Positions 1-32,291 of a DNA stretch of 38,357 bases are shown here, in pieces. Numbering within the stretch: position 1 is the first letter of the stretch; each line of letters opens with the position of its first letter. Under the pieces are notes generated by a model. That model was not told the origin of the DNA and searched no databases. It saw only the letters and a list, made by a program, of their open reading frames with translations. The position numbers and the translations under genes are program-made. Origin of the DNA: a virus (lineage: Duplodnaviria; Caudoviricetes); IMG/VR virus record IMGVR_UViG_3300007735_000699, positions 1 to 38,357 of that record. One strand, written 5' to 3'.

Positions 1-127
1 GGCAGCGTTCGCGCCGCTTTGACAAGCTCACCGACGCTAGAACCTGGAGGGACGAGACACGCCGGCGTAAGCAGATGGGTGGAATGGCTCACCTCCTGCC
101 CGTGAACCTCACGCTGACCGAGTTCAC
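1..127. repeat. Terminal direct repeat, identical to 38231-38357; indicates a circular or circularly permuted genome of ~38,230 bp
   Basis: ggcagcgttc...accgagttcac occurs at both ends; 127 nt is a typical assembler k-mer overlap. Confidence 0.95.
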
Positions 128-1046: not shown

Positions 1047-1320
1047 GGAATGTTCGCGTGGCGTTGTCGGAAGAGTTGCAGACCCCCCGTATTCCGTCCG
1101 GCAAGGTGGGTAAAACCCCTGCTAATGATGAAAGGTGGACGACGGGACTCGAACCCGCGACCTCCCGGACCACAACCGAGAGAGGTTGGGAAATGGGAGA
1201 TAGCGTGGGAATGGCGCAACGCTTCGTGGAGCGCCACAAACCGCTTGCCCAAGCGAGATCGTGGAACGCTGATCGGTCAATGGGAATGGCCCGCGTTTCC
1301 CAGAAGTCCAATCCATTCCC
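1046..1320. repeat. GGGAATG(G) repeats flanking the attP core; candidate integrase arm-type sites
   Basis: GGGAATG 1046-1052, TGGGAAATGGGA 1187-1198, TGGGAATGGC 1206-1215 and 1281-1290, inverted CCATTCCC 1313-1320. Confidence 0.55.
1134..1180 (-). other. attP: attP core: 3' half of a tRNA-His(GTG) gene (anticodon arm, T arm, acceptor 3' strand)
   Basis: Minus strand reads CTCGG-TTGTGGT-CCGGG AGGTC GCGGG-TTCGAGT-CCCGT CGTCCACC; no D arm or 5' acceptor strand upstream; lies directly downstream of int. Confidence 0.85.
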
Positions 1321-3452: not shown

Positions 3453-3663
3453 CGGCACCCAGAACTTCAGAGTCTCGCCCAAGTGGGGCGGCATCTGCGC
3501 TAAGTGCAGGTCCGACCTCACGATCCGCACCCGACTCGACGGAAGAACCCGGTCCAAGCAGAACTCCAACGGGAGAATCTACTGCTCGAACCGGGCCTGC
3601 CTTCACTTCACCCACCCCCACCCGACCGGGTGGAAGCTCAACCGGGGTGGCCTACTCCCCTGA
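3436..3663 (+). CDS. Small zinc-binding protein
   Basis: CAKC...YCSNRAC; overlaps the end of terS. Confidence 0.5.
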   Translation: MKTPTSGTQNFRVSPKWGGICAKCRSDLTIRTRLDGRTRSKQNSNGRIYCSNRACLHFTHPHPTGWKLNRGGLLP

Positions 3664-3912
3664 GTTTCGCCGCGCCTCTTCCTCCAGCTCGGCGGCGATT
3701 TCTTCCCGAGTCCTCACCCTTCGCTTCGTCTTCTGCCAATGCTCGACGAACGCCTTCACTTCGTCAGCGTCCCAGATTCGCCCGCACCGCAGGGTAGCCA
3801 GCGGTTCAGGGAATCCAGGGCGGTCGGTCAGGTATTGGGCCATCGCTTTCGTCAGCACGTTTTCGTGCCTTATTTCGTAGAGGCTACATAGCCTCGGTTT
3901 AGAGTCGGTCAA
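3652..3912 (-). CDS. AlpA/excisionase-like DNA-binding protein; last gene of the leftward cassette
   Basis: RPGFPEPLATLRCGRIWDADEVKAF is an AlpA-type winged-HTH motif. Confidence 0.65.
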   Translation of the reverse strand: MTDSKPRLCSLYEIRHENVLTKAMAQYLTDRPGFPEPLATLRCGRIWDADEVKAFVEHWQKTKRRVRTREEIAAELEEEARRNSGE

Positions 3913-3985
3913 GAAACCCTCCGATCAGGTAGAGAACAAGGCAGTAGCCGACACCGAACAGGAAACAGTAAGCGCCTTCGGTCAC
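3899..3985 (-). CDS. 28-aa TM micropeptide (paralogue 2)
   Basis: GTG start coupled to the previous TGA; MTEGAYCFLFGVGYCLVLYLIGGFLDRL. Confidence 0.55.
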   Translation of the reverse strand: MTEGAYCFLFGVGYCLVLYLIGGFLDRL

Positions 3986-4062
3986 GACAGCACCACCCCC
4001 ACGACGTAGAGAAGAACGGATAGGCCAACGCCTACTCCGAGACAGAGGATCGGTTCGCTCAT
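3982..4062 (-). CDS. 26-aa TM micropeptide (paralogue 1)
   Basis: ATGA overlap, GGAGGT upstream; MSEPILCLGVGVGLSVLLYVVGVVLS. Confidence 0.55.
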   Translation of the reverse strand: MSEPILCLGVGVGLSVLLYVVGVVLS

Positions 4063-4286
4063 ACCTCCACCTCCACCCCGTTCGCGGCGAGGATTTCTTC
4101 GTCACTTGGATCGGCTCCGCAGCTCTCGCAGGAATAGGAAAAGAAATCCCATTCCCCGTTCGACGCGTCCACGTGTGCCACCTTGCCCCCGTCAAGGGCA
4201 AGAGGCACGTCAACCAGATACCGAGCCGCAAGCGTCCCGATCTCGGAGCAACTTGGACACTTGATCTCGTCGTGTGCGATCTTCAT
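4059..4286 (-). CDS. Zinc-ribbon protein
   Basis: MKIAHDEIKCPSC...YSCESCG; ATGA coupling and GGAGG SD; start is later than the one in the ORF track. Confidence 0.7.
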   Translation of the reverse strand: MKIAHDEIKCPSCSEIGTLAARYLVDVPLALDGGKVAHVDASNGEWDFFSYSCESCGADPSDEEILAANGVEVEV

Positions 4287-4471
4287 TGCTTCCCTCCATT
4301 CTTGTTTTCGATTAGCAGCACCGCCGCCACCCCCACGAAGAAGGCAGCGGCGATACCCGTCACAACCAGAGTCACCGGCATAACGCCGGCGTGAACCTCC
4401 TGCGGAAACACCGCCCCGGTCAAGACCAGGGCGATGCAACCGAAGAGTTTGGGCGGGGTGGTCGGGTTCAC
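4283..4471 (-). CDS. Small two-TM membrane protein
   Basis: Two hydrophobic stretches; coupled starts and stops. Confidence 0.65.
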   Translation of the reverse strand: MNPTTPPKLFGCIALVLTGAVFPQEVHAGVMPVTLVVTGIAAAFFVGVAAVLLIENKNGGKQ

Positions 4472-4656
4472 TTGCCCCTCCCCTCCCTCTTCTTATTGCG
4501 GCGGGCAATCTCAGCCTGAACCGCCTGAACACCTTTGGCATACTCCGCCGCGTCCTTTGCGAACCGCTCGGCCTGCTCTGCGTAGTCCTCGACCTTATCG
4601 GCCAGCCACTTATCGCCAGCCTCAGCCAACTCTTTTCTGTCGGTTATTATGAACAC
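4468..4656 (-). CDS. Small coiled-coil protein
   Basis: GTG start after SD GGAAGAGGTGAATA. Confidence 0.7.
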   Translation of the reverse strand: MFIITDRKELAEAGDKWLADKVEDYAEQAERFAKDAAEYAKGVQAVQAEIARRNKKREGRGK

Positions 4657-4675
4657 TATTCACCTCTTCCTATTC

Positions 4676-4751
4676 ACCTACCGAGCTTATTCCCGATAGG
4701 TAGGGCGCAACCCCGGACTCGAACCGGGGCGCGGGCCTGGAACCCTTACGC
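4676..4751 (-). ncRNA. tRNA-like three-way junction copy E (4705-4751) plus AAUAAG-loop hairpin (4676-4701)
   Basis: GCGTAA/GGG-TTCCAGG-CCC/GCG/CCCCGG-TTCGAGT-CCGGGG/TTGCGC, then ACCTATCGGG-AATAAG-CTCGGTAGGT. Confidence 0.75.
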
Positions 4752-5015
4752 GATTTCACTTCCGAACGGGACCGCTTGTATGCCACACCCGCCGGCATAC
4801 GAACGGTATCCCTCCACCGACTTCTCCCCCTCTTGGGTCAGCCAAGCGCCGGGCCTACTCTGGTCCAGCTCCACCAGCCCGGCATCTTCCGCCCGCCCCA
4901 AGTCTTCTTCTGGGTGGTATGGATTCTCGCTCAGCCACCATTGGTCGGAAAGGTCGGGACCGTAATCCCGCACCGTGACCAACAGATGCCTCAGATCGTA
5001 AATATCTTCGTGCAT
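4746..5015 (-). CDS. Hypothetical protein, possibly winged-helix
   Basis: ATG after GAATAGGAAGAGGTGAAGAA; ...AEDAGLVE...WLTQEG is a wHTH-like tail. Confidence 0.65.
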   Translation of the reverse strand: MHEDIYDLRHLLVTVRDYGPDLSDQWWLSENPYHPEEDLGRAEDAGLVELDQSRPGAWLTQEGEKSVEGYRSYAGGCGIQAVPFGSEIA

Positions 5016-5053
5016 TTCTTCACCTCTTCCTATTCGCTTTGACTTACCCCTAC

Positions 5054-5062
5054 ACCGTAGCA
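5054..5062 (-). promoter_or_regulatory. Extended -10 promoter P3 (TGcTACGGT)
   Basis: Same TGnTACGGTG as at 6594-6603; lies ~40 nt upstream of an ATG in an intergenic gap; no clear -35. Confidence 0.5.
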
Positions 5063-5088
5063 TATTGCCCGGCGTAGCGTCGCCACCC

Positions 5089-5715
5089 TTAGAAGGGTAT
5101 GGCGACCTCTTCAGCGGTTGCTACCGCCGTCAAGACTTCCCGCTTCGCGTCCGGGGTCTTACTCAGAAGCTCGACCACCGCCTCTACGCTCCGCTTGGGT
5201 TTCCGATCCTCACCCCGCACCGCTTCGCGCACCTTCTCCGCTTCCCCTTCGACCAGACTTAGCAGCGGTTCCTCTTCGCCCGCTTCGATCATTGGGGTAG
5301 CCTTCACCTGCGCCGCCGTGAACACCGGCCAGGGATAGAACCCCGGCCCTTTCGTGATATACCCGGCAGCTCCGGCCCCTTTCGGGATCGCTGCGCCCCA
5401 CCTCTTCCATTCTGCGAAGGTTCCGACCACCTCCCCCGGCACCTGCCACGCTATGAGCGCGGCATTAGTAGGGGTAGCGTCCGGGTGTAGTCGTATGGCC
5501 TTCAGGATCAGGGGCGCGGCCCGCTCGGGGTCTTCCTCTATCCATTCGACCATCTCCCGCAACCGGGCGGAATGTTCCAACCGCGCCGCCCTCTTCTCCG
5601 CTTTCGTGCGGAAAGAATGCAGCGGGCGCTTCGCACTTCCACCCGCTGCCCGGTATGAATCGCGCAGGGCGTGGCGCTCTTCCTCTTCGATGAGCTGCGC
5701 GGCGGTCTTAGGCAT
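5089..5715 (-). CDS. ArdC-like N-terminal ssDNA-binding domain protein (anti-restriction candidate)
   Basis: NAALIAWQ....VGTFAEWKRWGAAIPKGA resembles the ArdC/DUF1738 N..L..Q...TF..W...G..V.KG motif; start MPKTAA overlaps the upstream stop. Confidence 0.65.
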   Translation of the reverse strand: MPKTAAQLIEEEERHALRDSYRAAGGSAKRPLHSFRTKAEKRAARLEHSARLREMVEWIEEDPERAAPLILKAIRLHPDATPTNAALIAWQVPGEVVGTFAEWKRWGAAIPKGAGAAGYITKGPGFYPWPVFTAAQVKATPMIEAGEEEPLLSLVEGEAEKVREAVRGEDRKPKRSVEAVVELLSKTPDAKREVLTAVATAEEVAIPF

Positions 5716-6034
5716 CGTCGCCCTCCAGCGGGGGGCAATGCCCGGTCCTGCACCCCGCCGTGTCCATCTCGGAGAGGTCGCCATAAATCCGCCCGCAGTT
5801 TTCGCAGGGATACCCCTCCACCTTCTCGACCGTATCCCCCGCCGTATAGCGGGCAATATCTTCCATCTCCACGAAATCGCCTACCCCGGGCGTGTATTCG
5901 ACTTCTACCGTGAAGTCACCGCGCACGAATACCGAACGCACCGATAGCACCTCACCCGTTCCCCCCTCCTCATCGCGCACGATATCGCCGGGGCGCAGGT
6001 CTTCTGCCTTTATTCTTCTCACTTCTCTGCTCAT
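5708..6034 (-). CDS. Small protein with SH3-like barrel and C-terminal zinc knuckle
   Basis: KAEDLRPGDIV...GEVLSV; CENC...GC...C; SD GAAAGGTGG. Confidence 0.65.
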   Translation of the reverse strand: MSREVRRIKAEDLRPGDIVRDEEGGTGEVLSVRSVFVRGDFTVEVEYTPGVGDFVEMEDIARYTAGDTVEKVEGYPCENCGRIYGDLSEMDTAGCRTGHCPPLEGDDA

Positions 6035-6055
6035 CTCTTCCACCTTTCCTAGTCA

Positions 6056-6134
6056 CCCGCCCGGCCCTATTGCCGAACGGGAAACCCGCGCCGCCGGGAT
6101 CGAACCGGCTAGGGGCATCGAACCCCGGCGCAGG
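6056..6134 (-). ncRNA. tRNA-like three-way junction copy D (6085-6134) plus AAUAGG-loop hairpin (6056-6081)
   Basis: CCTGCGCC/GGGG-TTCGATG-CCCC/TA/GCCGG-TTCGATC-CCGGC/GGCGCGGG, then CCCGTTCGGC-AATAGG-GCCGGGCGGG. Confidence 0.8.
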
Positions 6135-6142
6135 GGGGGGCG

Positions 6143-6541
6143 CTAATCCTCTTCCCCGTATAGCTCCTCATATGCGGTATCCGTGATCTCGATAGCGATT
6201 TCGTGGATCACCGCGTCGCACATTCCCTCCGGGGTATTGCGCTCCATCTGGAGAACCGGCTCGACGTTGGCGAGCGCTGGAGAATCGGCGACTAGGGCGA
6301 TTTTCTCCCCGGTATATACCGGGACGGCCCCTTCTGCTACCTCCCCCAAGTTCTCGGGAGAGTTTCCCCCCTCAATCCATTCGATCACCGTTTCTACTAC
6401 CCCAACCGCCCAATCTCGGAGGGTATTGCCCCCGTAAAGCTCGGACGCGTCAAGGTAATCCCACGCCACCCGCTGCGCCGGGGTGATCTCCCCCGCCTTC
6501 TCCCGCTCTTCGCGGCTCCACCTTTTTAGCTCTTCGCTCAT
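6143..6541 (-). CDS. Ocr (T7 gp0.3)-like acidic DNA-mimic protein
   Basis: Very acidic; LGEVAEGAVPVYTGEKIALVAD resembles Ocr [22 protein letters not shown]; acidic C-terminal helix; SD GAAGAGGTGAGAAGA. Confidence 0.65.
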   Translation of the reverse strand: MSEELKRWSREEREKAGEITPAQRVAWDYLDASELYGGNTLRDWAVGVVETVIEWIEGGNSPENLGEVAEGAVPVYTGEKIALVADSPALANVEPVLQMERNTPEGMCDAVIHEIAIEITDTAYEELYGEED

Positions 6542-6594
6542 TCTTCTCACCTCTTCCCGGGGTCTTCGCCCCTTCGCTTTTCTATTCACTCTGC

Positions 6595-6623
6595 ACCGTA
6601 TCAAAAACACCGGCGGCACGCAA
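6595..6623 (-). promoter_or_regulatory. Sigma70-type promoter P2 for the ocr-like gene, overlapping a terminator-like hairpin
   Basis: TTGCGT-N17-TACGGT with extended TG; overlapped by CGGCGGC-loop-GCCGCCG-GTGTTTTT. Confidence 0.6.
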
Positions 6624-6648
6624 TCCCGCCGCCGTTCACCTCTTCCAC

Positions 6649-6825
6649 CTATGCCGCCCGGCTACCCTTCGCCGGTATCAGATACCCGCCCCGGATCAGC
6701 TCTCGCCGCCGCTCGATGCATCGCCGGCAAGCCCCAGGGCCGCGCACCGCCCCCCGCCCGCATACCCGGCAGGGGTGGTATTCGCTCAAGAATCGGGCAA
6801 CCTGCGCCCGCTCACCTTTTCGCAC
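6649..6825 (-). CDS. 58-aa basic zinc-finger protein, not in the ORF track
   Basis: GTG after GGAAGAGGTGAGCAA; MRKGERAQVARFLSEYHPCRVCGRGAVRGPGACRRCIERR... Confidence 0.65.
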   Translation of the reverse strand: MRKGERAQVARFLSEYHPCRVCGRGAVRGPGACRRCIERRRELIRGGYLIPAKGSRAA

Positions 6826-6847
6826 TTGCTCACCTCTTCCCTATTCC

Positions 6848-6924
6848 CCCGCCCGGGCCTATTCCCGGACGGGTAAAGCGCGGGCCGGGACTCGAACCCG
6901 GCGCGGGCCTAAACCCGCCGCGCT
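6848..6924 (-). ncRNA. tRNA-like three-way junction copy C (6877-6924) plus AAUAGG-loop hairpin (6848-6873)
   Basis: AGCGCGG/CGGG-TTTAGG-CCCG/C/GCCGGG-TTCGAGT-CCCGGC/CCGCGCT, then CCCGTCCGGG-AATAGG-CCCGGGCGGG. Confidence 0.8.
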
Positions 6925-6933
6925 ACCGCCGCC

Positions 6934-7167
6934 CTATTCGGGGCGAATGTATGCCCCCCGCGACCACGACGGGGGCAAGCTCGCCCGTCCGGGGCGCTCG
7001 TCCCATTGCACTAGGAATGCGGGGCGAGCGGTGAACGGGGGCAGATTCTCTCCCCCTAGCGTGCGCGTGATCCTCTCCCCATAATCCGGGGCGGGATCGG
7101 TTATCACCTGCACGATCTGCCCCGCCGCGTTGCCCGTCCAATGCGCTACCCGTGAACCCGTTTTCAT
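6934..7167 (-). CDS. Small SH3/Tudor-like hypothetical protein
   Basis: MKTGSRVAHW...GQIVQV...FLVQWD; strong SD GAAGAGGTGAAGA. Confidence 0.7.
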   Translation of the reverse strand: MKTGSRVAHWTGNAAGQIVQVITDPAPDYGERITRTLGGENLPPFTARPAFLVQWDERPGRASLPPSWSRGAYIRPE

Positions 7168-7187
7168 TCTTCACCTCTTCCATTCCA

Positions 7188-7259
7188 CCTCGCCCCTATT
7201 GGCGAGGAATACCGCGCCCCGGACTCGAACCGGGAACCGGGCCTAATCCCGGCGCGGCA
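7188..7259 (-). ncRNA. tRNA-like three-way junction copy B (7210-7259) plus AAUAGG-loop hairpin (7188-7207)
   Basis: TGCCGCGC/CGGG-ATTAGG-CCCG/GTT/CCCGG-TTCGAGT-CCGGG/GCGCGGTA, then CCTCGCC-AATAGG-GGCGAGG. Confidence 0.8.
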
Positions 7260-7265
7260 GGTTTG

Positions 7266-7481
7266 CTACGCGTTCCGATTGGCAACCCGCGCCGCAACCT
7301 CCGGCGTGGTCACGAAAACATCGGTTGCGATGAGATCACCCGCGCCAATCAGCTCGTCAATGACGCGCTCAATGCCCGCGCCGTATAGATCCCCTAGCCA
7401 TTCCCGCTCACAATAGAGGCCGTTCGATTCCCAATCGTGAACCTTTCGCATTACCTGCGCCGCCGTTACCTTCTCGCTCAT
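7266..7481 (-). CDS. Small hypothetical protein
   Basis: ATG after GAAAGGTGAAAGTT. Confidence 0.7.
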   Translation of the reverse strand: MSEKVTAAQVMRKVHDWESNGLYCEREWLGDLYGAGIERVIDELIGAGDLIATDVFVTTPEVAARVANRNA

Positions 7482-7502
7482 AACTTTCACCTTTCGATTT
7501 CA

Positions 7503-7575
7503 CCCCCGCCCTATTGCGGGAGAGTATCGCGCCCCGGTCACGATCCGGGCGCGGGCCTCTAAGCCCGGCGCGATA
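7503..7575 (-). ncRNA. tRNA-like three-way junction copy A (7525-7575) plus AAUAGG-loop hairpin (7503-7522)
   Basis: TATCGCGC/CGGG-CTTAGAGG-CCCG/CG/CCCGG-ATCGTGA-CCGGG/GCGCGATA, then CTCCCGC-AATAGG-GCGGGGG. Confidence 0.75.
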
Positions 7576-7585
7576 TGGCTATCCC

Positions 7586-7861
7586 CTAGCCCCGGGGATA
7601 GAGCTCGCGCGGGGCGAGCTGGTCGCCGCAATCCTCGCAAACGCGGGGCGGCGCGAAATCGAATTCCGGCTCCCGCTCCCGCTCCCGCTTGTCTTCTGCG
7701 AGATCGGCAAGGGTAAGAATCTCCCCCCGGAAACTCTCCCCGCCGAATGCAGACTCGTCTAGACCCTCGTCTAGGTCTATGGCTTTCTGCATGCAATAGG
7801 CGCAGAAGAATCCCTCTTCATTGCGGTATCCCTCTACCCGGCTATCTGCGGTGCGTGACAT
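7586..7861 (-). CDS. Acidic zinc-binding protein; first gene of the early cassette
   Basis: FCAYC...VCEDCG; acidic; SD GGAAGGGG. Confidence 0.7.
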   Translation of the reverse strand: MSRTADSRVEGYRNEEGFFCAYCMQKAIDLDEGLDESAFGGESFRGEILTLADLAEDKREREREPEFDFAPPRVCEDCGDQLAPRELYPRG

Positions 7862-7881
7862 TGTGAACCCCTTCCATTTAC

Positions 7882-7938
7882 GCCGCGCCCTATTGCGCGA
7901 CTAGGTGAACCCTAGCACACTATGCGGCGGATAGGCAA
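7882..7938 (-). promoter_or_regulatory. Promoter P1 of the leftward cassette and 5'-terminal AAUAGG-loop hairpin
   Basis: TTGCCT-N18-TAGGGT with extended TG (7909-7938); GTCGCGC-AATAGG-GCGCGGC (7882-7901) begins at the predicted +1. Confidence 0.65.
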
Positions 7939-28128: not shown

Positions 28129-28344
28129 ATGGCAGCCGCACGACCCCCCAGACACCCAGATCAAGACCGACTCTCATACCTCGAAACCGCAGTAGCCGTT
28201 CACGATACCCAGATTGAGGGTTTGGACGAGGACGTGCGCGATCTCAGCGAGGCTATCCGAGGCTTACGCCAAGCGATTATTGGCTTTGCCCTTACGGTTG
28301 CGGCAAGCGCCGCGATCCTAGTCTTTGGGATTAGCCGCGTCTGA
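28129..28344 (+). CDS. XhlA-like coiled-coil plus C-terminal TM protein (holin accessory candidate)
   Basis: DRLSYLE...coiled coil followed by a hydrophobic C-terminus. Confidence 0.6.
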   Translation: MAAARPPRHPDQDRLSYLETAVAVHDTQIEGLDEDVRDLSEAIRGLRQAIIGFALTVAASAAILVFGISRV

Positions 28345-28682
28345 TGGCCGCTTGGCAGACAAAGGCAGGTAAGAACCCTACGGGTGGACTCAATGCCGCC
28401 GGTCGAGCATCGCTTAGGGCGCAAGGACAGAACATAAAGCCGGGGGTCAAGAGCTATTCCTCTGCTTCCCCCGCTGATAAGCAGCGTTGGATCAGCTGGG
28501 CGCGTCGGTTCTACGCCAACCCCTCCGGCCCGCTGAAGGACGCTAAGGGCCGTCCGACCCGCCTAGCCCTTACCGCCCGAGCTTGGGGCGAACCCGTTCC
28601 CTCCACCCGCGCTCAGGCGCAATCCATCGCTCGTAAGGCGAAGGTGCGGCAGGCTCGGTTGAAATCCGTTCGTAGGGTCTGA
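28344..28682 (+). CDS. Small basic phage protein (DUF6321-like)
   Basis: AWQTKAGKNPTGGLNAAGRAS...KPGVK. Confidence 0.6.
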   Translation: MAAWQTKAGKNPTGGLNAAGRASLRAQGQNIKPGVKSYSSASPADKQRWISWARRFYANPSGPLKDAKGRPTRLALTARAWGEPVPSTRAQAQSIARKAKVRQARLKSVRRV

Positions 28683-28790
28683 TACCTTTCATCTCGTCGC
28701 GCAAGGCTTCACCTCCCTGCGTGATGGTGGATTCTTCCACCTTTTCTATTCCGACGAAGCCCCTGGCCTATTCCGGGGGCTTTGTCGTTT
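28683..28790 (+). ncRNA. Structured intergenic RNA ending in a terminator-like hairpin with a CCUAUU loop; candidate antisense regulator of the early cassette
   Basis: Hairpin with loop AGGCTTCACCTCCC; TCTTCCACCTTT; CTATTC; 15-bp stem 28752-28787 around CCTATT, followed by TTTCT. Confidence 0.55.
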
Positions 28791-28822
28791 CTGAACACCT
28801 ACTACCTCTCTAGGAGGCTCCA

Positions 28823-29185
28823 ATGGCTAAGAAGCCCGCCCGCAAGGGTGTATTCCCGCGTGGGGAAAAGGCGCAGCCCGCCCACGTTTATGCCGAGCGG
28901 ATCGCTCGCAAGTTCAACCTCTCCATAACTTCCGGCTATCGCAGCAAGGCTGAGAACGCAGCGGTCGGCGGTGCGCCCAACTCGTATCACACGCGAGGTC
29001 TTGCGTTTGATTTCGTCCCGCAGCGTTCCGGCGCGTGGGGACAGCTCGACCGCGCTAAGGCGTGGGCGTATGCCCGCTTCTCTGGCAACTTCGCAGAAGT
29101 CCTCTGGCGAGTCAGCGGTCACTACGATCACCTGCATATCGCGCTTGCTCCCGGCAAGGCTACCCCGAGCAGGCGGCGGTATTAG
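28823..29185 (+). CDS. Peptidase M15A-like (D-Ala-D-Ala carboxypeptidase fold) protein
   Basis: TSGYRS..ENAAVGGAPNSYH..GLAFD...HLHI; SD AGGAGG. Confidence 0.85.
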   Translation: MAKKPARKGVFPRGEKAQPAHVYAERIARKFNLSITSGYRSKAENAAVGGAPNSYHTRGLAFDFVPQRSGAWGQLDRAKAWAYARFSGNFAEVLWRVSGHYDHLHIALAPGKATPSRRRY

Positions 29186-29187
29186 AT

Positions 29188-29739
29188 ATGGCAGCCCTGA
29201 AGCGCAGGTTGCGCCGACTTCTCCGCAAGGTAGCGCGGGTGCGCCGGCAGATACGCCAAGCCAAGACGCGCCCGACAGATATTTCTGAAAACGGTGTTGC
29301 CTTTATTAGTGAGTTTGAGGGCTTTGAGCCGCGCCCACGCCCCGATCCCGTCGGGTATTGCACCGTTGGCTTTGGGCATCTTATTCGCTACGGAGCTTGT
29401 CGCCCAGAGGATCATAAGAAGTTCGGAACCCTAACGCTGAAGCAGGGACTCGATCTACTTCACTCTGATCTCAAAGAGTATTCGGACGGTATTAGAGACT
29501 CTGTAAGCGTTCCCCTGACCCAGAATCAGTTTGACGCTTTGGTTTCGTTTGCCTACAACAACGGTTTGGGCGCGTGGCTTTCCAGCACGTTGAGGCGCAA
29601 GATAAATGGCAAGGCTCCATCGTGGGAGATTCGCAGCGAGTTCTCCAAGTGGGTCAATGCCGGCACCCCCCCGCGCCCGCTCCCTGGATTGGTAAGGCGC
29701 AGGAAAGCCGAAGCAGACCTCTTTTACCAGAAGTCGTAG
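29188..29739 (+). CDS. Endolysin, GH24 lysozyme
   Basis: FEG.......DPVG..TVGFGH (E-D-T triad), LTQNQFDALVSFAYN.G, GLVRRRKAEADLF. Confidence 0.9.
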   Translation: MAALKRRLRRLLRKVARVRRQIRQAKTRPTDISENGVAFISEFEGFEPRPRPDPVGYCTVGFGHLIRYGACRPEDHKKFGTLTLKQGLDLLHSDLKEYSDGIRDSVSVPLTQNQFDALVSFAYNNGLGAWLSSTLRRKINGKAPSWEIRSEFSKWVNAGTPPRPLPGLVRRRKAEADLFYQKS

Positions 29740-29806
29740 TTTTCCGTCCGTTTAGCCTGCTTCTATTCATAGTGGCAGTTTTACCAAACCTATTAGGAGG
29801 ATTCGT

Positions 29807-29968
29807 ATGACCCCCAAGAAGAAGGTTGCCGCCGCAGGTATTGGCGGTGCAGTCACCACGATTCTGCTCTTCGTTCTCTCTCAGTTCAGCGTTGAGGTTC
29901 CTGGCGATGTAGGAGCCGCGATTGCAACCGTGATCTCGTTTGCCGCTGGATTCCTGAAGGCCGAGTAG
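29807..29968 (+). CDS. Putative holin, 53 aa with two TM helices, not in the ORF track
   Basis: SD AGGAGG; MTPKKKVAAAGIGGAVTTILLFVLSQFSVEVPGDVGAAIATVISFAAGFLKAE; follows the lysozyme gene. Confidence 0.7.
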   Translation: MTPKKKVAAAGIGGAVTTILLFVLSQFSVEVPGDVGAAIATVISFAAGFLKAE

Positions 29969-29970
29969 CC

Positions 29971-30273
29971 CTGAGCCACTATGCGAGGGGGAGGGCAAAA
30001 GAATATGCGGTGCGCGATTGCCTCATTGAACGGGGGTATGAAGTCGTGAGGGGCGCAGGCTCTAAGGGCGCTGACCTGATTGCGGGGCGCAACGGCAAGA
30101 CCTATGCCATTGAGGTCAAGAACACGAAGACCCTATGGAGTGGATTCGGCCCCGCTCGTCGTGCAGAGATGCGCCGTATGTGCAAGAACGCCGGGTGGGT
30201 TGGAGTGCTAGTCCACTTTGCCCCCGGCGAGTCCAAGCCTACTGTGGCCTTTGAGAATGTGTGGCCCGACTAA
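29971..30273 (+). CDS. Hjc-type Holliday junction resolvase (possible CTG start)
   Basis: Y.RG..KE...L...GYEV.RGAGSKG.DLIA......IEVK (PD-(D/E)XK, Hjc pattern). Confidence 0.75.
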   Translation: MSHYARGRAKEYAVRDCLIERGYEVVRGAGSKGADLIAGRNGKTYAIEVKNTKTLWSGFGPARRAEMRRMCKNAGWVGVLVHFAPGESKPTVAFENVWPD

Positions 30274-32003: not shown

Positions 32004-32291
32004 CTACCCGCCCTCCTGCGCGTTGGGGGGCTTCTTTATTTCTCCTACGGTTTCGGCGCTTACATCGAGTTCTGACGACAGTTCACCCGTGAACCATACC
32101 CTCGGTAGCCCGGTCACTTCTGCGATCCCCATGATCTCTATCCACCTAGCCTGACGTTCGCCCTTTTCCACCCGAGCAAGGGTAGGTTGGGAAATCTGAA
32201 TCTTGTCGGCAAGCTCTTCCTGTGACAAGCCAGCATAGGCTCTGGCGGCTCTAACCCTTTTTCCTAGTTCTTCTGCACTCATTCCGACCAT
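32004..32291 (-). CDS. XRE-family HTH immunity repressor
   Basis: LGKRVRAARAYAGLSQEELADKIQISQPTLARVEKGER; divergent from the replication operon. Confidence 0.85.
   Translation of the reverse strand: MVGMSAEELGKRVRAARAYAGLSQEELADKIQISQPTLARVEKGERQARWIEIMGIAEVTGLPRVWFTGELSSELDVSAETVGEIKKPPNAQEGG

What the first reader, a model, noticed from the sequence alone, without database searches (positions are those of the whole stretch)
28683..28790. Candidate late antisense RNA complementary to the early-gene leaders
Seen on the plus strand after the structural genes: (i) a hairpin exposing CTTCACCTC (28707-28715), identical to the anti-SD strand at 7169-7177 and 5018-5026; (ii) TCTTCCACCTTT (28733-28744), identical to 6036-6047, the complement of a cassette RBS; (iii) CTATTC (28746-28751); (iv) a 15-bp terminator-like stem whose 6-nt loop CCTATT (28767-28772) is the exact complement of the AATAGG loops. 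Parts ii-iv occur in the same order as in the reverse complement of the early leaders. The G-U pairs of this stem work on the plus strand, whereas those of the early hairpins work on the minus strand, so the two RNAs have opposite polarity. Inference: a 3'-UTR-derived or lysogen-expressed sRNA that could kiss the AAUAGG loops and occlude the SDs, silencing the cassette in trans. Each match is short, so chance is not excluded.
Basis: partly seen in the sequence, partly recalled or inferred. Interest (0 to 1): 0.8.

Follow-up and report, generated by a model that had tools for sequence, protein, structure and literature searches.

The report
Phage RNA mirroring early-gene leaders
An uncultured temperate phage carries a conserved, roughly 95-base folded sequence behind a predicted promoter that is complementary to the ribosome-binding leader shared by its eight early genes, and distant relatives with different leaders carry matching different versions, so it is likely a small RNA that turns those genes down together, although no such RNA has been observed.

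Summary
28696-~28791 (+) folds into three hairpins (z -8). It starts 7 nt behind a sigma-70-type promoter of the same build as two early promoters, ends in a terminator-like stem, and is more conserved than its flanking genes. Its HP1 loop and a 14-16-nt stretch (parts ii+iii) are predicted to pair with the ribosome-binding sites of the eight early-cassette genes (mean -10.0 vs -1.8 kcal/mol for 26 other starts). In 5 of 8 cassette-bearing phage records (three lineages, this one included), a promoter-hairpin unit matches that phage's own leader and beats all 76-86 foreign candidates; 3 of 8 show none. Best reading (0.58): a trans-acting antisense RNA that blocks early ribosome-binding sites, working like P1/P7 c4 but not a C4 member. 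'Late' and loop-kissing are weakly supported. Energy alone is modest (6/200 and 4/200 shuffles; rank 11/1340 windows). No RNA data exist. Mycobacteriophage Adephagia's single reversed SAS also sits in a hairpin loop, which makes the open SAS question testable. The scan noted similar designs on other DNA.

The parts
28659..28688 (+). Predicted sigma-70/sigma-A-type promoter: -35 TTGAAA (28659-28664), 18-nt spacer, TG extension (28680-28681, shared with the upstream stop codon), -10 TACCTT (28683-28688)
   Evidence: One of only 4 TTG+TG+TA...T sites in the window, two of the others being early-cassette promoters. The relative keeps TTG, TG and TA...T while the variable letters change. Prediction only; the stricter scan did not list it.
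28696..28725 (+). HP1, predicted to start at +1; loop 28707-28715 is complementary to the early Shine-Dalgarno core
   Evidence: fold; hits; G-U to G-C and U-A to U-G in the relative; C28707T in two runs, wobble-compatible
28726..28751 (+). HP2 (28726-28741, 6 bp) plus single-stranded pyrimidine linker (28742-28751). 28733-28752 is predicted to form 14-16-bp helices with early ribosome-binding sites; the linker would be the toehold
28752..28792 (+). HP3, 15-bp terminator-like stem with loop CCTATT (28767-28772) and a short U-rich tail
   Evidence: identical in the relative
28344..28682 (+). Upstream gene, DUF6321 family
28823..29185 (+). Downstream gene, peptidase M15; an endolysin-family ORF follows (within 29062-29739)
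7909..7938 (-). Predicted first early-cassette promoter (same build as the element's promoter)
6595..6623 (-). Predicted internal early promoter
7861..7901 (-). Early leader 1: AATAGG hairpin (7882-7901) and ribosome-binding site; weakest predicted target (-5.4)
7481..7575 (-). Early leader: tRNA-like fold without anticodon arm (7525-7575), AATAGG hairpin (7503-7522), ribosome-binding site
7167..7259 (-). Early leader: tRNA-like fold (7210-7259), AATAGG hairpin (7188-7207), ribosome-binding site (predicted target 7169-7186)
6825..6924 (-). Early leader: tRNA-like fold (6877-6924; weak mascRNA match, E 0.046), AATAGG hairpin (6848-6873), ribosome-binding site
6541..6580 (-). Promoter-proximal early leader without hairpin; predicted target 6546-6553
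6034..6134 (-). Early leader: tRNA-like fold (6085-6134), AATAGG hairpin (6056-6081), ribosome-binding site (best predicted target, 6036-6051)
5015..5050 (-). Early leader without hairpin; predicted target 5018-5026
4656..4751 (-). Early leader: tRNA-like fold (4705-4751), AATAAG hairpin (4675-4702), ribosome-binding site

Best explanation
The conserved three-hairpin sequence at 28696-~28791 is likely the gene of a ~95-nt small RNA, predicted to be made from its own host-type promoter, that would base-pair in trans with the shared ribosome-binding leader of the phage's early cassette genes and so likely lower their translation together. Shown: the fold, its plus-strand G-U pairs, the promoter-like and terminator-like ends, the conservation, the complementarity, and matched promoter-hairpin units in two other lineages with different leaders. 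Inferred: the RNA is made; the HP1 loop docks on the Shine-Dalgarno core; the U/C-rich linker acts as toehold and displaces HP2 to give a 14-16-bp helix whose U residues read either A or G, which absorbs leader variation; ribosomes are excluded. The CCUAUU loop is at most an accessory contact. Likely purpose (inferred): a threshold that ends the early burst and keeps leaky cassette transcription quiet in the lysogen, and perhaps in a superinfecting phage with the same leader, as a layer beside the XRE repressor. HP3 would also keep this promoter from reading into the lysis genes.
For: Fold z -8. Promoter: 1 of 4 full-pattern sites in the window, chance 0.0002 per position, with +1 at the first paired base; the only promoter-plus-strong-hairpin site in the window and in G001. 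Conservation: 4 differences in 101 nt against about 14% in the aligned block (binomial p 0.0009); none in 28683-28797 in a strain with 71 differences over 28300-29200; an X8 contig fits only from 28692 on. Stem changes keep plus-strand pairing. Specificity: 8 early starts mean -10.0 vs 26 other starts -1.8 kcal/mol, p 1.7e-5; rank 1 of 693 sense-strand windows, and 1 of 591 in G001. Family: block-diagonal cross matrix for 6 elements x 6 leader sets. Among 91 promoter-hairpin candidates from 18 records, the best own candidate beats all 76-86 foreign ones in G000, G001, G005, G008 and G015. The phage looks temperate: integrase, attP matching a tRNA-His, XRE repressor.
Against: No transcript or binding evidence. 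Shuffles reach the observed energy in 6/200 and 4/200 cases. Over both strands the element ranks only 11 of 1340, and windows of an unrelated genome reach -13.7 against its -11.5: purine-rich leaders are easy to complement. 3 of 8 cassette records (G007, G019, G011) show no outlier (45%, 84% and 62% complete). The elements of other lineages are not homologous in sequence or position, and G005, G008 and G015 were first found by looking for complements. The candidate filter was set after seeing them. Only one full relative and three Logan strains cover the element itself, so there is no true loop-leader covariation at this locus. G018 has a promoter-driven CCTATT-type hairpin without matching leaders. 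In G001 both strands fold about equally. My energy model uses ungapped helices and ignores kissing geometry.
Confidence: 0.58

Rival explanations
1. It is only a cis element: a promoter with a short terminated leader (or a double terminator) in front of the lysis genes, like lambda pR'/tR' (recalled), and the matches to the leaders come from pyrimidine-rich terminator sequence or from an old inverted copy of a leader.
For: It lies directly before the M15 peptidase and endolysin genes. HP2 and HP3 both score as terminators. Shuffles keep three quarters of the binding energy (null mean -7.5 vs -10.0). Read on the minus strand, parts ii-iv have the order of a leader.
Against: Terminator loops need no fixed sequence, yet the HP1 and HP3 loops are kept or change wobble-compatibly. 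The G005, G008 and G015 units are next to the cassette end, not before lysis genes, and still match their own leaders.
Confidence: 0.18
2. The RNA exists and pairs with the leaders but raises or stabilises expression (it protects the 5' ends released at the tRNA-like folds, or blocks a nuclease) instead of repressing.
For: The leaders carry tRNA-like folds that suggest processing. A promoter of the early type would make the RNA at the same time as its targets.
Against: The predicted helices cover the Shine-Dalgarno sequence itself, which is unpaired in the free leaders; this normally blocks ribosomes.
Confidence: 0.07
3. The RNA's main targets are host mRNAs or another RNA (a general anti-Shine-Dalgarno mimic or sponge), and the match to the phage leaders is secondary.
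For: The HP1 loop resembles an anti-Shine-Dalgarno. G018 has a promoter-driven hairpin RNA candidate with no evident phage target.
Against: It binds the phage's 26 other starts poorly, and its sequence tracks each phage's private leader across lineages. Host targets were not tested; the host genome is not known.
Confidence: 0.08
4. The working unit is on the minus strand or in DNA: a further AATAGG hairpin that binds the same protein as the early hairpins (decoy or operator), or a recombination repeat of the PeSL type.
For: The minus strand also folds well (z -4.2 to -7.1). AATA.G is invariant in 11 of 11 leader hairpins whose stems covary, as expected of a protein site. ORFs behind the leaders are swapped between relatives.
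Against: HP3's two G-U pairs become mismatches on the minus strand. The promoter points the plus way. The minus-strand ORF 28570-28740 has a stop at codon 3 in the relative.
Confidence: 0.09

Closest known systems
c4 antisense RNA of phages P1 and P7 (Rfam C4; passages read in PMC5320573, and PMC12197685)
   Same: Small, three-stem-loop RNA of a temperate phage whose unpaired parts pair in trans at a ribosome-binding site; specificity differs between related phages.
   Different: No Rfam C4 match. Hairpins in series rather than the C4 motif. Predicted primary transcript rather than an RNase P product. About eight targets through a shared leader rather than the antirepressor mRNA. Untested.
Start-associated sequences (SAS/ESAS) of cluster K mycobacteriophages (PMC3203893, section 15 part 1 of 2 and passages read; PMC11373665, passages and section 19 read)
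   Same: A private asymmetric motif at the ribosome-binding site of non-structural genes, in one orientation, with a single reversed copy not at a gene start (four K1 phages). In Adephagia that copy lies in a 10-nt hairpin loop.
   Different: Different sequence and host class. Here the leaders add a tRNA-like fold and an AATAGG hairpin. SAS function is stated to be unknown. Pixie shows no reversed copy in the stretch read (18 forward, 0 reverse).
PeSL regulatory cassettes of T4-type phages RB49/phi1 (PMC2839356, abstract only)
   Same: Repeated regulatory units between small, shuffled early genes.
   Different: PeSLs are promoter plus terminator. Most units here are a tRNA-like fold plus hairpin plus ribosome-binding site. 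The abstract mentions no antisense partner.
mascRNA/menRNA-type tRNA-like folds (Rfam RF01684)
   Same: The early-leader folds have acceptor-, D- and T-arm-like parts and no anticodon arm.
   Different: The match is below the gathering score (29.2 vs 42.5 bits). It concerns the targets, not the antisense element; processing is untested.

Membership tests
C4 antisense RNA (P1/P7) | Match to the Rfam C4 covariance model | tested here: not met
   3 matches at E<=1 in the window, none C4, none at the element; none for L094 or the relatives' loci
C4 antisense RNA (P1/P7) | Two unpaired regions complementary to the target, one over the ribosome-binding site | tested here: met
   By prediction only: HP1 loop and 28733-28752
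C4 antisense RNA (P1/P7) | Matured from a precursor by RNase P | not testable with these tools
   A predicted +1 at the first helix base suggests a primary transcript
C4 antisense RNA (P1/P7) | Target is an antirepressor mRNA | tested here: not met
   Predicted targets are cassette ORFs with no PHROG or Pfam family; no antirepressor hit among the ORFs scanned
Intrinsic terminator | GC-rich stem followed by a U-rich tract | tested here: met
   HP2 and HP3 flagged; HP3's tail is short. This does not exclude the antisense role.
Trans-encoded antisense sRNA | Discrete transcript with its own promoter and terminator | tested here: inconclusive
   Both ends predicted; no RNA run was available
Trans-encoded antisense sRNA | Pairing-dependent regulation shown by compensatory mutants | not testable with these tools
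   Only cross-lineage matching
SAS/ESAS of cluster K phages | The 13-bp SAS consensus or the 17-bp ESAS inverted repeats | not tested
   The window was not scanned for the SAS motif; the leaders read have a different sequence
SAS/ESAS of cluster K phages | Repeated one-orientation motif at non-structural gene starts with a single reversed copy | tested here: met
   (same arrangement in the window, G005, G008; analogy, not homology)
PeSL | Each repeat is a sigma-70 promoter plus stem-loop terminator | tested here: not met
   Only 2 full promoter patterns in the cassette for 8 leaders
tRNA gene (early-leader folds) | Full cloverleaf with anticodon arm | tested here: not met
   ARAGORN finds 0 genes; T-arm pairs covary, 65 of 65 cells paired

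The most novel reading that the evidence does not exclude
Actinobacterial phages widely use a 'private leader plus matched anti-leader RNA' switch. Each phage stamps its variable early genes with its own extended ribosome-binding motif (here on messages punctuated by tRNA-like folds that host RNases would cut into single-gene units) and encodes one small RNA that reads the motif, so any gene that enters the cassette is put under control at once. The same switch would explain the start-associated sequences of cluster K mycobacteriophages, whose single reversed copy in Adephagia sits in a hairpin loop in the interval where late transcription is reported to begin.
Probability: 0.35. Interest if true: 0.87.

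Novelty: new variant of a known kind. Interest (0 to 1): 0.72.

Why it matters
If true, one RNA controls a whole, freely exchanged early-gene cassette through a shared leader: a one-to-many RNA operator that complements protein repression and could set RNA-level immunity groups. It also gives a direct test of a question left open in 2011 and still open in 2024, namely what the SAS motifs of cluster K mycobacteriophages bind (PMC3203893, PMC11373665). That test can be run with a cultured phage in M. smegmatis.

Tried and rejected
Expression: no RNA holder listed among 21 runs; no evidence either way. Rfam, ARAGORN: nothing at the element. Minus-strand ORF 28570-28740: rejected, stop at codon 3 in the relative. 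Pattern scans of viral contigs for leader or element motifs gave only the known relative: 0 of 16 loci related by inspection of contexts for 13 of them, 2 of 18 loci (one contig), 2 of 88 loci (one contig), plus 2 unrelated hairpins. DUF6321 relatives other than L001 lack the element (12 of 52 loci inspected downstream). The metagenome scan gave 2 loci of the same phage. G019 candidate (-32408): rejected, inside the terminase gene and own leaders not among its top 14 hits. G018 hairpin: no matching leaders. G007: two hairpins complementary to its leader (+12600, +10380) but no promoter-hairpin outlier. G011 (+26143): rank 4 against 85 foreign candidates, not significant. L272 has no cassette in the stretch read. 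Window +3631 and +5391 score better than the element but lie opposite minus-strand cassette sequence. An antiterminator pairing of 28694-28699 with the base of HP3 was seen by eye (6 bp) and is absent from the predicted folds. Literature: nine searches listed no paper whose title or abstract describes this element, tRNA-like early leaders, or an anti-SAS RNA; most subscription papers and all supplements (including Figs 14 and S3 of PMC3203893 and the RNA-seq figure of PMC11373665) were not seen.

Full report
Setting. The window is a whole circularly assembled phage record (127-nt terminal repeat) with terminase, portal, capsid and tail genes on +. It looks temperate: tyrosine integrase 75-1046, an attP-like half tRNA at 1131-1177 that matches a tRNA-His of a Solirubrobacterales MAG at 96% over 47 bp, and an XRE HTH gene at 32004-32291. 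Capsid relatives occur in 2 Solirubrobacterales MAGs (one of them, G024, is unpublished), so the host is likely of that order. A minus-strand cassette of small orphan genes lies at about 3.6-7.9 kb.

Observation. The plus strand folds into three hairpins, z -8.0 against -4.2 for the minus strand. HP3 has two G-U pairs usable only on +, and the early hairpins have theirs on -. Two refinements: part (ii) is half buried in a 6-bp hairpin, and (ii)+(iii) form one antisense stretch, 28733-28752. One of six early hairpins has AATAAG, which mismatches the CCTATT loop.

It looks like a gene. Upstream lies TTGAAA-18 nt-TG-a-TACCTT, with a predicted start at G28696, the first paired base of HP1. Only 4 sites in the window have this full pattern; two are early-cassette promoters (chance 0.0002 per position). 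A census for promoter pattern plus strong hairpin at +1 returns one site in the window and one in the relative G001, the element in both. G001 changes the variable letters of both hexamers but keeps TTG, TG and TA...T. The stricter scan did not list this promoter. HP3 is terminator-like, giving an RNA of about 95 nt.

It is conserved. Against G001 (86% over the aligned block) I counted 4 differences in 101 nt (binomial p 0.0009). Two are in the HP1 stem (G-U to G-C; U-A to U-G, valid only on +) and two in the HP2 loop. A Logan strain with 71 differences over 28300-29200 has none in 28683-28797 (X9 and X12 hold what looks like the same contig and count once). Runs X8 and X14 show one change, C28707T, which still pairs by wobble; the X8 contig diverges upstream of 28692 but keeps an extended -10. 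A minus-strand ORF over the element is not conserved.

It fits the early ribosome-binding sites. An accessibility-weighted scan of ungapped helices (my own script) puts early leaders at the top of the genome-wide list. The 8 early starts average -10.0 kcal/mol and 26 other starts -1.8 (p 1.7e-5). Co-folding gives -5.6 to -18.7 kcal/mol for the 8 leaders. Against this, composition does much of the work: 6 of 200 dinucleotide shuffles and 4 of 200 loop shuffles match the observed mean. The element ranks 11 of 1340 windows on both strands, and windows of G015 reach -13.7 against its -11.5. Among sense-strand windows it ranks 1 of 693, and 1 of 591 in G001 (the strand map is mine).

Relatives with other leaders. 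A capsid alignment brought 36 viral loci; 17 records were fetched whole or nearly so. Seven of them have an early cassette with a private leader motif. G005 and G008 (capsid 48-49%) keep the tRNA-like fold and an AATAAG hairpin but use another ribosome-binding motif; each has exactly one reversed copy, in a hairpin 6-7 nt behind a -10 element and before a terminator at the cassette end, on the cassette strand. G015 has a third motif and a two-hairpin unit on the opposite strand that ranks 1 of 1626 windows. The cross matrix is block-diagonal. Because these were found by looking for complements, I ran a filter that uses only a -10 element and a hairpin: 91 candidates in 18 records. The best own candidate beat all 76-86 candidates of other lineages in G000, G001, G005, G008 and G015, but not in G007, G019 or G011. 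The filter was set after I had seen the elements, so it is not fully blind. These units are analogous, not homologous. G018 is a counter-case: a promoter-preceded CCTATT-type loop with no matching leaders.

Mechanism. Inferred: host RNA polymerase makes the RNA from infection onward and in the lysogen, and late read-through may add to it. The HP1 loop docks on the Shine-Dalgarno core. The U/C linker is a toehold that displaces HP2 and forms 14-16 bp across the motif, with U reading A or G. Ribosomes are excluded, so the cassette is translated only while its mRNA outnumbers the RNA. Kissing by the CCUAUU loop is possible but unsupported outside G000/G001: no complementary loop was found in the partial G005 and G008 records. 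The invariant AATA.G loops on covarying stems (11 of 11) may equally be protein sites. Rivals are a plain lysis attenuator (0.18; the lambda pR' comparison is recalled), a minus-strand or DNA site (0.09), host targets (0.08) and activation (0.07).

Known systems. It would work like c4 RNA of P1/P7 (passages of PMC5320573, and PMC12197685) but fails the Rfam and target tests. The arrangement matches the SAS of cluster K mycobacteriophages, for which PMC3203893 (section 15, part 1 of 2) reports a single reversed copy in four phages and leaves open whether an RNA or protein binds. PMC11373665 still calls the role unknown and places the start of late transcription between genes 92 and 93. In Adephagia 16 forward and 1 reversed copy were found in the stretch read; the reversed one is in a 10-nt hairpin loop in that interval (z -3.8). 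Pixie has 18 forward and none reversed. PeSL cassettes (PMC2839356, abstract) resemble the shuffled cassette only. Nine paper searches listed nothing on this element; figures and supplements were not seen. Earlier notes of this scan describe the same design in other genomes (unchecked, one partly fell, not counted as support; one pointed to SAS/ESAS); none concerns this genome or look-alike DNA.

Verdict. Real, conserved and probably a small RNA gene; antisense control of the early cassette is the best explanation at 0.58. New variant of a known kind; interest 0.72.

Noticed in passing
window 4705-7575 (-); L134, L135, L137, L157, L162/L163: Five tRNA-like folds without anticodon arm sit between a stop codon and the next leader in the early cassette. 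Similar folds occur in G001, G005, G008, G015 and G019. T-arm pairs covary. They could be RNase P/Z punctuation marks that release single-gene mRNAs with a protective 5' hairpin (inferred).
   Followed up: partly
L261 33664-33714 (Adephagia JF704105, about 58663-58713): The single reversed SAS (1 of 17 matches) lies in the 10-nt loop of a strong hairpin between genes 92 and 93, where late transcription is reported to begin.
   Followed up: partly
window 1131-1177 (-): attP candidate behind the integrase: 47 bp, 96% identical to part of a tRNA-His gene of a Solirubrobacterales MAG (G023).
   Followed up: yes
window 32004-32291 (-): XRE-family HTH gene, likely the immunity repressor.
   Followed up: partly
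G018 42735-42860 (-), L161: Promoter-preceded double hairpin with a CCTATT-type loop behind the large virion protein gene, opposite in strand to the window's element; no target found.
   Followed up: partly
window 3535-3650 (-): Long conserved hairpin and a purine-rich arm at the end of the early cassette, likely its terminator; in a block 91% identical in the relative.
   Followed up: partly
window 34405-34433 (-): Fourth full promoter pattern, antisense within a plus-strand gene; role unknown.
   Followed up: no
window 3899-7861 vs L054: ORFs behind the conserved leaders are exchanged between the two close relatives, as in a shuffled cassette.
   Followed up: partly
window 29740-30000: Stretch before and within a small holin-like ORF is 92-98% conserved in the relative and holds short complements of the leader motif; no strong fold.
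   Followed up: no
window 1-127 / 38231-38357: Exact 127-nt terminal repeat (circular assembly), although CheckV gives 44% completeness.
   Followed up: no
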